IMG/VR virus record: IMGVR_UViG_2740892369_000006
Direction: 5' to 3' (one strand)
Length of the DNA stretch: 14,145 nucleotides
DNA from: a virus
Taxonomy: Duplodnaviria; Heunggongvirae; Uroviricota; Caudoviricetes
Part shown: positions 9,001 to 12,000 of the stretch, piece by piece
Layout: the number at the start of each line of letters is the position of its first letter
Numbering within the stretch: position 1 is the stretch's first letter
Program-made: the position numbers

Positions 9001-12000
9001 CTGATGTCTGATGCCATTCCGAAAGCACACAAGACCGAAGCAATAAATCTCCAGTCCGTTCTGCTTATCTTCGATTCATGACAGCCAATCATCTTTGCCA
9101 GACCGCGCTGGGTAAGCGTTGACAGGTTGATGAGTAAATCTGTTTCTGCGCGATCAATTTCTCGCTGTGTTAGCTTGCTGTAACTTGCTTGTGCCATTTG
9201 TTAATTTTCCTATATTGATATATAGCGGCACACCCAGTGGATTTGCCGCTGATGTTTGCTCACCCGGTTAGAGGTGAAAGGCCAGAACTGTTAAAGAGCA
9301 ATTTACTTATGCCGCTTGGCGGTAAGCACTTTCTTGATACTTCAGGGCGCCAGCTGTAACGATTTCCAATCGATAGGCGTCTTTCTCTGGGATAACTTCT
9401 TTCCACTGAGAGACTGCTGCATCGCTAATGCCTAGTGCTTTAGCAACAGCACGCTGGGTTCCGAAGTGGTCAATAACATCTTTTTTGTACATAGACTCGC
9501 TCCGAAATTAAAGAACACTTAAATTATCCACCAAAGGAATCTTAAGTCAAGTTTATTTAAGATGTCTTAACTATGAATACACAACTGATGGGTGAGCGTA
9601 TTCGCGCTCGCAGAAAAGAACTCAAGATTAGGCAGGCTGCCCTTGGCAAGATGGTTGGCGTGTCTAATGTTGCTATTTCCCAATGGGAGCGATCTGAAAC
9701 TGAGCCCAATGGCGAAAACCTATTGGCCTTAGCCAAGGCTTTGCAGTGCTCCCCTGATTACCTGTTGAAAGGAGAGGATAGTCTTTCAAACATTGCCTAT
9801 CACAGCAGGCATGATCCAAGAGGTTCGTATCCTCTAATTAGTTGGGTAAGCGCAGGATGTTGGATGGAAGCTGTAGAGCCATATCATAGGCGTGCAATAG
9901 ATAACTGGTACGACACAACGGTAGATTGTTCTGAAGACTCTTTTTGGCTCGACGTTAAAGGTGATTCAATGACTGCCCCGGCAGGACTGAGTATTCCTGA
10001 AGGGATGATTATTCTCGTCGACCCAGAAGTCGAACCACGTAATGGAAAGCTGGTAGTCGCCAAACTTGAAGGAGAAAACGAGGCGACATTCAAAAAGTTA
10101 GTTATTGATGCCGGTAGAAAATTCCTGAAACCACTCAATCCACAATACCCAATGATTGAAATCAATGGGAACTGTAAAATCATTGGCGTTGTCGTTGATG
10201 CCAAGCTAGCAAACCTTCCTTAAGGGGCTTTCGCCCCTTTTTTATTTCCCGTTAAAAATCAAAGACAAACTAAATTCGCGCCCATAAAATTAAGTTTTCT
10301 TCAAAAATGCACTTGACCAAAAAATTAAGAGGTCTTAATTTTAAGCCGTCAGCAGGAGGCTGGAAGCCAAACGGAACAGATTGGCAGGCTCTTTAACATC
10401 GACGAACTCTCAACCTAACCGTTGAGACCAGAACTTGAGTGGTTTTGGGGATGGCGCGAATTGCAGCTGCAAGACAGCGATCGAGAAGATAAGCACCTCG
10501 ACGCGTCATGCGCCAAAGCCACTTAAAGGAGACCATCATGGTAACCATTGTCTGGAAAGAATCCAAAGGTACGGCAAAAAGCCGCTACAAAGCTCGCAGA
10601 GCAGAACTTATTGCCGAGCGACGCAGTAATGAAGCACTGGCGCGAAAAATTGCGCTAAAGCTCTCTGGTTGCGTCAGAGCAGACAAAGCAGCATCACTAG
10701 GAAGCCTTTGCTGCAAGAAGAAAGAAGAAGTTGTTCGAAAAAATAGAAGTATTTATTACAAGGATTCAAACCCATTAGGAAACAAAATACATGCAGTCCA
10801 AAAAATAAAATTGTACAGTAAACTACCGTACGGTGCTTATTGAGTATGCTTATGGTGAAAAAGACTATTTATGTTAATCCTGACCGCGGACAAAACAGAA
10901 AAGTATCTGATAGAGGTCTTACATCTCGAGACAGGAGGAGAATAGCGAGATGGGAAAAGAGGATAGCATATGCATTAAAAAACGGTGTAACACCTGGATT
11001 TAATGCTATAGATGACGGTCCTGAATATAAGATTAATGAAGACCCAATGGACAAAGTTGACAAAGCATTAGCAACACCATTTCCTCGCGATGTCGAAAAA
11101 ATTGAAGATGAAAAATATGAGGATGTAATGCACAGAGTTGTTAATCACGCTCACCAACGAAATCCAAATAAAAAATGGTCATAGCCCACTTCGGTGGGTT
11201 TTTTATTGGCTGAACTAACCTAATTTATTACAGCAAGCCACGCAGTGAAATGGGTGTGACTTGTGTTGGTCGCCAGAAAATGAAATTAGGCAGCAAACCA
11301 CTTATTTGAGGTGAGATATGACAAAATCATGGAGCGTACCTTTTCCTGAATCAGAAACTGAACATGATGGAATGCCTGTTTTCTGGAGATTCCAGGCGAC
11401 AGTTGAAGAAGATGGGATAAAAATATTCGCACTTCAATATATAGCTTTTCATCAGACAGAGCATTATGCATGGTTGGTTCCTGCGCATTGGATTGTTAAT
11501 TTTAAACCAGCACCAAATCAGTGGTTACAGGAATGGAAACAAAGGAGAAATAGATATGCAATTAAGAAAGTAGCAAAAAATGCAGAAAGATCTTTTGCAT
11601 TCCCAACGAAGAAACTTGCTATTGAAAGTTTATTGCGCCGGAAGAAATACCATTTAATGAGAATAAAACAAGATTTGGCTGTTGTATCAACTCTTGTTGA
11701 TGGGATGAAAAATATTGATACATCAACACCAGATATTGAATATAACTTTGGACACAACCAAGAAACAGAAAATTGGGTATTTTATTAGTACGAGTAAGCA
11801 CTGTGTATTCATTCCAACGAGTGAATACACGGAGCAATGTCGCTCGTAACTAAACAGGAGCCGACTTGTTCTGATTATTGGAAATCTTCTTTGCCCTCTA
11901 ATGTGAGGGCGATTTTTTTCTGTGAGGATATGAACAGATGTCAAACATCAAAAAATACATCATTGATTACGACTGGAAAACATCAATAGAAATTGAAATC

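What the first reader, a model, noticed from the sequence alone, without database searches (positions are those of the whole stretch)
11318..11788. 156-aa unknown protein occupying the ral/sieB slot between N and ea10
In lambda this interval carries ral (restriction alleviation) and sieB (superinfection exclusion). Here it holds a single well-initiated ORF (SD GAGGTGA) for a soluble, Trp-rich 156-aa protein unlike either. Position in the early leftward operon, AT-rich composition and lack of recognisable domains make it a candidate anti-restriction, anti-defense or exclusion factor. It may act together with the upstream 113-aa ORF.
Basis: partly seen in the sequence, partly recalled or inferred. 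Interest (0 to 1): 0.65.

Follow-up and report, generated by a model that had tools for sequence, protein, structure and literature searches.

The report
Uncharacterised early gene beside phage N
This is a real, conserved and expressed 156-residue early phage protein, already catalogued as HK97 gp45 and 933W L0079, with no known function and a confidently predicted fold that matches no solved structure; it is a reasonable but unproven candidate for a counter-defence or host-takeover factor.

Summary
The ORF at 11318-11788 (+) is real. It has an ATG start, the Shine-Dalgarno GAGGTGA, 156 aa, 35% GC, 7 Trp and no membrane segment. It is identical to 933W L0079 and 99.4% identical to HK97 gp45. 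It occurs in 598 of 5426 complete E. coli genomes and is always annotated 'hypothetical'. Selection is purifying (dN/dS 0.07-0.16). Published EDL933 RNA-seq shows it transcribed in step with N and induced about 45-fold by SOS-inducing antibiotics.

The centre of the protein is basic across the whole family. No neighbouring gene is conserved. In E. coli phages the gene is a mosaic cassette joined to the 3' end of several N alleles, and it sits upstream of the first strong terminator.

The upstream ORF is HK022 Nun, a separate and well-characterised gene, not a partner.

Best guess (about 0.4): a stand-alone early accessory protein that binds nucleic acid or a nucleic-acid enzyme, for counter-defence or host takeover. 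Prophage-expressed exclusion is disfavoured. Function remains untested.

The parts
11318..11788 (+). 156-aa ORF, equal to 933W L0079 and HK97 gp45 (PHROG 1636, function unknown). Predicted single compact domain: long beta-hairpin and third strand (19-55), two short helices (57-74), short strands (83-86 and about 95), a 33-residue basic helix (98-130), and an ordered C-terminal tail.
11308..11314 (+). Shine-Dalgarno GAGGTGA. It overlaps the TGA (11307-11309) of the relic N reading frame. In phages with an intact lambda- or 21-type N gene, the N stop codon lies 8 nt before this ORF's ATG.
11226..11309 (+). Non-coding relic of an N gene 3' end (would read YYSKPRSEMGVTCVGRQKMKLGSKPLI*). It marks the upstream mosaic joint of the cassette.
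11183..11206 (+). Intrinsic terminator after nun (7-bp GC-rich stem plus T-run). It separates nun from the ORF, so in this window transcription of the ORF from pL should need N antitermination.
11801..11832 (+). 14-bp stem, 4-nt loop hairpin just after the stop codon. It travels with the ORF in 68 of 79 related loci (of the 11 without it, 5 end within about 210 nt of the stop codon). Role unknown; an mRNA 3' stabiliser or a processing site are possibilities.
11891..11920 (+). Intrinsic terminator (8-bp stem plus T7). In 933W, where no terminator lies between N and L0079, its counterpart is the first strong terminator downstream of N, so it is the tL1 equivalent there; in this window the nun terminator (11183-11206) comes first.
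   Evidence: RNA-seq
10846..11184 (+). nun, 99.1% identical to the HK022 Nun transcription termination factor. It is a neighbour, not part of the cassette.
10508..10843 (+). N-like antiterminator gene (PHROG 271; weak Pfam N_peptide hit). It provides the antitermination needed to read through to the ORF.

Best explanation
The ORF encodes a stand-alone, cytoplasmic, non-essential early accessory protein. It is made with, or immediately after, the antiterminator N at the very start of lytic growth or prophage induction. The most likely mechanism is that its conserved basic face binds a nucleic acid, or a host protein that acts on nucleic acid. That face comprises Lys/Arg at family positions 83, 84, 87, 92, 98, 108, 109 and 117, on the short strands and the first half of the long helix. 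The effect would be to blunt a host defence or otherwise condition the cell for the phage (counter-defence or host takeover).

Shown: the gene is real and under purifying selection. It is transcribed with N and SOS-induced. It forms a mobile cassette. It belongs to a broad phage family with a confident fold that is new relative to the PDB. The family has a conserved basic centre and no conserved partner gene.

Inferred: that it binds nucleic acid or a nucleic-acid enzyme, and that the benefit is counter-defence.

For: Accessory and autonomous. The identical ORF follows at least four N alleles or Nun, and precedes ea10, a gp17-like gene, cIII/kil or others. Distant relatives sit before xis-int, after NinG, after a Cro-like gene, or alone among structural genes, with no shared neighbour.

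Basic centre. Residues 76-120 carry a median net charge of +9 over 76 family members, and the median pI is 9.0.

No enzyme or membrane signature. No Pfam, NCBIfam or PADLOC hit for any member, and no hydrophobic segment.

Weak association. Orphan DNA methyltransferases or Lar-like genes lie within 5 kb in 5 of about 12 distant contexts.
Confidence: 0.4

Rival explanations
1. Transcription or lysis-lysogeny modulator. In this reading it is a small DNA-, RNA- or RNA-polymerase-binding protein that tunes early gene expression alongside N.
Confidence: 0.2
2. Recombination or replication accessory. In this reading it binds DNA intermediates and assists or protects the phage recombination and replication functions encoded in the same operon.
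For: The gene always lies in, or at the head or tail of, the operon that carries recombination genes. Examples are Gam/Bet/Exo here, Erf/Abc2 in HK97, RecE in Skulduggery and the Vibrio phage, RdgC or RecT nearby in L100, L102 and L103, ParB-like plus RusA in Bas81, and a HolE (pol III theta)-like gene just upstream in Brenneria. The central region is basic.
Against: The recombination system next to it differs from case to case, and none co-varies with it. Early-left operons contain recombination genes regardless. It shows no similarity to known SSB, annealing or mediator proteins in sequence or fold.
Confidence: 0.15
3. Superinfection exclusion or prophage-encoded defence, acting like SieB or Rex for the benefit of the lysogen.
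For: It occupies the positional slot of sieB in lambda. In one contig a relative is a lone gene on the opposite strand among structural genes, which resembles a moron. The count of 274 in uninduced LB culture is not zero.
Against: No promoter-like site lies in the leader. The LB signal equals that of N, which is repressed in lysogens, and rises 11-fold in raw counts (logFC 5.5) on SOS induction. That pattern is as expected from spontaneous induction rather than lysogen-specific expression. In this window a terminator precedes the ORF. There is no membrane segment, whereas SieB-type proteins are membrane proteins (general knowledge). No PADLOC hit. Structural relatives occur in unrelated phages of Erwinia, Achromobacter and Delftia.
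Confidence: 0.08

Closest known systems
[not shown]
   Same: The same protein, at 99-100% amino-acid identity over the full length. It has the same position after N and the same downstream hairpin and terminator.
   Different: Nothing material differs. None of these has an assigned function; every source names it 'hypothetical' or 'prophage protein'. In this window nun and a terminator are inserted between N and the ORF.
Lambda Ral (restriction alleviation) and SieB (superinfection exclusion)
   Same: They occupy the same genomic slot, between N and ea10 in the pL operon. They are accessory, AT-rich and dispensable (general knowledge).
   Different: No sequence or profile similarity (hhalign probability 0.15% and 0.6%). 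Ral is 66 aa. SieB is a membrane protein expressed in the lysogen. This protein is 156 aa, soluble, and transcribed with N.
Immediate-early anti-restriction proteins such as T7 Ocr (gp0.3)
   Same: Among the first genes transcribed, a small stand-alone protein, dispensable. This is a resemblance in how it might work, drawn from general knowledge only.
   Different: Ocr is a highly acidic DNA mimic, whereas this protein is basic (pI 9.1). No fold similarity to any PDB entry was found.
Tudor/KOW/PipX-like small beta-barrel domains

Membership tests
PHROG 1636 (HK97 gp45 / 933W L0079 family) | Full-length match to the family profile | tested here: met
   E 2.7e-112, residues 1-156 against profile positions 1-156 of 156. 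Of the 76 sequences in the wider alignment, 75 also match it.
Lambda Ral | Sequence or profile similarity to Ral (66 aa) | tested here: not met
   hhalign of the 76-sequence profile against lambda Ral: probability 0.15%, 4 aligned columns.
Lambda Ral | Alleviates type I restriction of unmodified DNA | not testable with these tools
   Needs plating assays on EcoKI/EcoBI hosts.
SieB-type superinfection exclusion | Sequence or profile similarity to SieB | tested here: not met
   hhalign probability 0.6%, 8 aligned columns.
SieB-type superinfection exclusion | Membrane protein | tested here: not met
   The maximum 19-residue Kyte-Doolittle mean is 0.56, so there is no hydrophobic segment.
SieB-type superinfection exclusion | Expressed from its own promoter in the lysogen | tested here: not met
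   No promoter-like site in the leader. The RNA-seq counts parallel N and rise on SOS induction. This is a consensus scan plus one published data set, so it is not conclusive.
Structurally solved anti-restriction and anti-defence proteins (Ocr, ArdA, KlcA, Tad, Acb, Gad, Acr and others) | Fold similarity to any solved chain | tested here: not met
   [not shown]
Known anti-phage defence systems (PADLOC) | Match to a defence-system protein model | tested here: not met
   Only a chance-level hit: Cas1_II, E 0.018, 12 bits.
Moron (autonomous promoter-gene-terminator cassette) | Own promoter upstream and terminator downstream | tested here: not met
   A terminator is present at 11891-11920, but no promoter-like site lies upstream. 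Instead the leader is the 3' end of N.
Tudor/SH3-like small beta-barrel | Significant structural superposition on the barrel | tested here: inconclusive
   [not shown]

The most novel reading that the evidence does not exclude
The protein is an RNA-polymerase- or elongation-complex-binding cofactor that has gone unnoticed next to N. The case rests on three points. It has a Tudor/KOW-like beta-barrel plus a basic helix. In E. coli lambdoid phages it is genetically joined to the RNAP-binding C-terminal end of N. It is made on the same immediate-early transcript. In this reading it would modify host transcription or the N-antitermination complex in Stx phages and, through its wider family, in many unrelated phages. 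A less exotic alternative that is also not excluded is that it founds a new fold family of immediate-early counter-defence proteins; I put that at about 0.3.
Probability: 0.07. Interest if true: 0.75.

Novelty: new member of a known kind. Interest (0 to 1): 0.4.

Why it matters
The gene sits in most Shiga-toxin-converting phages and in about 11% of complete E. coli genomes, sometimes in up to four copies. It is one of the very first genes switched on when these prophages are induced by antibiotics, yet nobody knows what it does. If it disarms a host defence or reprograms the cell, it would affect how readily Stx phages spread and convert new strains. It would also add a new, widely distributed fold family to the anti-defence or host-takeover repertoire. 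If it turns out to be a minor regulator, it is one more ordinary mosaic accessory gene.

Tried and rejected
1. Domain libraries. Pfam, NCBIfam and PADLOC gave nothing, for the protein or for all 76 family members. PHROGs returned only 'unknown function' families: 1636, 13631, 25384 and 28215.

2. First structure prediction. With only the 20 close homologues the model was poor (pLDDT 60) and was not used. The 76-sequence alignment gave pLDDT 96.

4. Apparent multi-domain relatives. P0066 (940 aa) and P0080 (444 aa) are repeat or low-complexity artefacts, not fusions.

5. Locus scans with distant alignments or single distant proteins failed or found nothing. Contexts came instead from annotated phages and the look-up of encoding contigs.

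6. Conserved-neighbour search across about 15 different contexts found no shared partner.

7. Literature. Searches for L0079, HK97 gp45 / gene 45, phrog_1636 and pL-operon counter-defence found no functional study. Only the EDL933 transcriptome gave usable data.

8. Partnership with the upstream ORF was rejected, because that ORF is Nun.

9. Rfam found no RNA family in or next to the ORF; its only hit is the cIII thermoregulator at 12366-12424.

Full report
OBSERVATION

The window is the early region of a lambdoid (Stx-phage/HK97-like) prophage, with the pL operon reading left to right on the + strand:
- cI (9573-10223)
- an N-like gene (10508-10843)
- nun (10846-11184)
- the target ORF (11318-11788)
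- ea10/DUF2528 (11938-12306)
- cIII/kil (cIII thermoregulator RNA at 12366-12424)
- gam, bet and exo

ATG is at 11318, GAGGTGA lies 4 nt upstream, and the stop is TAG at 11786-11788, giving 156 aa. The protein weighs 18.6 kDa with pI 9.1. It has 7 Trp and no Cys, and no hydrophobic segment (maximum 19-residue Kyte-Doolittle mean 0.56). The ORF is 35% GC against 44% for the window. In lambda the N-ea10 interval holds sieB, orf28 and ral, so the 'slot' description is correct.

IS IT A REAL GENE?

Yes, on three grounds.
- Homologues. A search of 5.8 billion proteins found 33 relatives. These include full-length proteins at 56-85% identity from Pectobacterium, Brenneria, Rosenbergiella, Cronobacter and a Symbiopectobacterium, with 40 invariant columns in a 20-sequence alignment.
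- Selection. Codon comparisons give dN/dS of 0.07-0.16 where synonymous sites are not saturated. In the other pairs synonymous sites are saturated while the protein stays above 60% identical.

WHAT IS ALREADY KNOWN ABOUT IT

The protein is 100% identical to 933W L0079 and to the corresponding ORFs of many Stx1 and Stx2 phages. It is 99.4% identical to HK97 gp45 and to the H-19B ORF. It is present in 598 of 5426 complete E. coli genomes, with up to four copies per genome, and is always annotated 'hypothetical protein'. The exact sequence is seen on at least 1000 contigs, and every source calls it 'hypothetical' or 'prophage protein'. I found no functional study in the searchable literature. As an ORF it is therefore old; as a function it is blank.

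ANATOMY OF THE CASSETTE

I examined 80 IMG/VR loci that carry the ORF at 100% amino-acid identity; 79 could be placed by exact match and analysed.
- The gene upstream varies. It is a 933W-type N (127 aa), a 21-like N (99 aa), lambda N itself, other N alleles, or Nun (12 loci).
- The gene downstream also varies. It is ea10, a P22 gp17-like gene, cIII/kil directly, or one of several unknown genes.
- Similarity to the window breaks 55-85 nt upstream, inside the conserved C-terminal codons of N.
- Similarity breaks again 115-130 nt downstream of the stop codon.

In the window, bases 11226-11309 would read YYSKPRSEMGVTCVGRQKMKLGSKPLI*. This is a relic N 3' end, and its TGA overlaps the ORF's Shine-Dalgarno sequence. 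In phages with the intact lambda- or 21-type N, the N stop codon is therefore 8 nt from this ORF's ATG.

A hairpin with a 14-bp stem (11801-11832) follows the stop codon and travels with the ORF in 68 of the 79 loci; of the 11 without it, 5 end within about 210 nt of the stop codon. An intrinsic terminator lies at 11891-11920. In 933W there is no convincing terminator between N and L0079, and the first strong one is just after L0079. HK97's annotators placed a putative terminator in the same position.

Together with the RNA-seq pattern, this makes N plus L0079 the immediate-early pL transcription unit in 933W-type phages. N and L0079 give similar counts in uninduced culture, ssb beyond the terminator is four-fold lower, and all three are high after induction.

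In this particular window, nun and its own terminator (11183-11206) have been inserted between N and the ORF. Here the ORF should depend on N antitermination. That last step is an inference.

THE UPSTREAM '113-AA ORF'

This ORF is Nun, 99.1% identical to the HK022 transcription termination factor. It is a well-characterised gene that moves independently. HK022 itself has IS903 in the slot after nun. Nothing suggests that Nun and the target ORF act together.

THE WIDER FAMILY AND ITS FOLD

An exhaustive profile search of 1.84 billion cluster representatives found 87 proteins with E below 1e-3. Most are 130-160 aa and only 18-27% identical to the query, but they are collinear with it over profile positions 19-140. 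They fall into two large subgroups and some singletons. They occur in:
- Pseudomonas phages 8P, Medea1, Skulduggery and others
- a Vibrio phage
- E. coli phage Bas81
- prophages of Marinobacterium and Pseudomaricurvus

None of the 76 aligned members hits Pfam or NCBIfam. The PHROG families they hit (1636, 13631, 25384, 28215) are all of unknown function. Apparent multi-domain hits are repeat artefacts.

With the 20 close homologues AlphaFold2 gave a poor model (pLDDT 60). With the 76-sequence alignment it gave pLDDT 96.2 and pTM 0.82. The elements of that model, in order, are:
- a long beta-hairpin (19-30, 33-46)
- a third strand (50-55)
- two short helices (57-61, 66-74)
- short strands at 83-86 and about 95
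- a 33-residue helix (98-130)
- an ordered C-terminal tail

Structure searches gave the following:
- Foldseek against the whole PDB gave nothing better than E 0.75.
- Profile searches against PDB sequences gave nothing.
- Foldseek against predicted viral structures gave 12 hits with E below 1e-3 (TM 0.45-0.78). All are uncharacterised proteins of phages infecting Erwinia, Achromobacter, Delftia, Sinorhizobium, Rhizobium and Tenacibaculum; a Cellulophaga phage protein follows just above the cut-off at E 1.1e-3.

So this is a broad, phage-specific family with a fold not represented among solved structures. It is not one of the structurally known anti-restriction or anti-defence families.

CLUES TO MECHANISM

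- Charge. Across the family the segment aligned to residues 76-120 carries a median net charge of +9 (range +4 to +13). The median pI is 9.0, and Lys/Arg are conserved at positions 24, 75, 83, 84, 87, 92, 98, 108, 109 and 117. The near-invariant residues are G33, E/Q46, T47, K87, A101 and K109, with aromatic core positions at 23, 41, 52 and 155. A conserved basic face on a small soluble protein points to binding a nucleic acid or an acidic or nucleic-acid-handling partner. This is an inference.
- Context. No neighbour is conserved. Relatives lie after N (E. coli) or as the last gene before xis-int (Pectobacterium and Brenneria, where a HolE-like gene lies upstream). Others lie after two DNA methyltransferases (Medea1), at the end of a RecE operon (Skulduggery), or directly after a Cro-like HTH gene and before a Rha-like gene (Vibrio phage). 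Still others head a small ParB-HTH/RusA operon (Bas81, NX263), follow NinB-NinG (L104), or stand alone on the opposite strand among structural genes (L099). Orphan methyltransferases or Lar-like genes lie within 5 kb in about 5 of 12 distant contexts. I regard that as weak, because such genes are common in early regions.
- Timing. It is immediate-early or very early, as described above.

INTERPRETATION

The best-supported reading (confidence about 0.4) is a stand-alone early accessory protein that acts through its basic face on nucleic acid, or on a nucleic-acid-processing host factor, for counter-defence or host takeover.

The rivals are:
- a transcription or lysis-lysogeny modulator acting with or near N (0.2)
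- a recombination or replication accessory (0.15)
- prophage-expressed exclusion (0.08)

Exclusion is disfavoured by five observations: no membrane segment, no promoter, a transcript that follows N and is SOS-induced, a terminator in front of the ORF in this window, and relatives in a wide range of other phages. The remaining probability is 'something else'. None of these readings is demonstrated.

COMPARISON WITH KNOWN SYSTEMS

It is a member of PHROG 1636 (the HK97 gp45 / 933W L0079 family). It is not a member of the Ral or SieB families (hhalign probabilities below 1%). It does not belong to any PADLOC defence family, nor to any structurally solved family. It is not a classical moron, because it lacks its own promoter. 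It resembles immediate-early anti-restriction genes such as T7 Ocr only in timing and autonomy, and it differs in charge and fold.

VERDICT

The gene is not a new discovery. This analysis adds four things: the breadth of the family, a confident model with a fold new relative to the PDB, the conserved basic centre, and the cassette's link to the N 3' end and to the immediate-early transcript.

Interest is moderate (0.4). It is a good target for anti-defence screening in medically relevant Stx phages, but nothing here would surprise a specialist yet.

Noticed in passing
window 10508-11206: The prophage carries both an N-like antiterminator gene and nun (99.1% identical to HK022 Nun) in tandem, followed by a terminator. 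In HK022, Nun stands in the place of N. The N-like protein has a divergent C-terminal end, and a second, relic N 3' end lies at 11226-11309. This suggests that the nun cassette was inserted by recombination within the end of N.
   Followed up: partly
window 3152-5005 (+), within a low-GC island at about 2000-5500: A 617-aa ORF lies on the opposite strand to the surrounding nin-region genes, in DNA of 33-36% GC. It has no Pfam or PADLOC hit and a Ser/Thr/Asn-rich N-terminal part. At the DNA level it was found only in Stx1 phages AU6Stx1 and SH2026Stx1, where it is annotated hypothetical. It could be a moron, effector or defence cargo gene.
   Followed up: partly
window 2865-2917: A hexanucleotide tandem repeat, (AAATAG) x 8.8, lies just upstream of the 617-aa ORF. 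It produces the spurious 'LFLFLF' ORF at 2730-2975. It might be a phase-variable or slippage-prone tract.
   Followed up: no
window 11801-11832: A hairpin with a 14-bp stem and 4-nt loop lies 13 nt after the ORF's stop codon. The 155-nt 3' region folds with z = -5.1 against shuffles. The hairpin is retained with the ORF in 68 of 79 related loci (5 of the other 11 end within about 210 nt of the stop), although the downstream gene varies. Its function is unknown.
   Followed up: partly
window 11837-11890: The start of a reading frame (MSLVTKQEPTCSDYWKS...) that continues as a 77-aa ORF in other prophages. Here it is cut off by the terminator/ea10 module, which marks a visible mosaic joint.
   Followed up: partly
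window 2104-2751 (-): An HNH_3 plus AP2-domain ORF (homing-endonuclease-like) lies in the nin region. It overlaps the annotated start of the NinG-like ORF.
   Followed up: no
window 8444-8520: About four copies of a 20-bp repeat lie inside the O-like replication gene. These are the expected origin iterons.
   Followed up: no
L106 (HK022) 2984-3907: In HK022 the slot after nun, where HK97 has gene 45, is occupied by an IS903 transposase.
   Followed up: no
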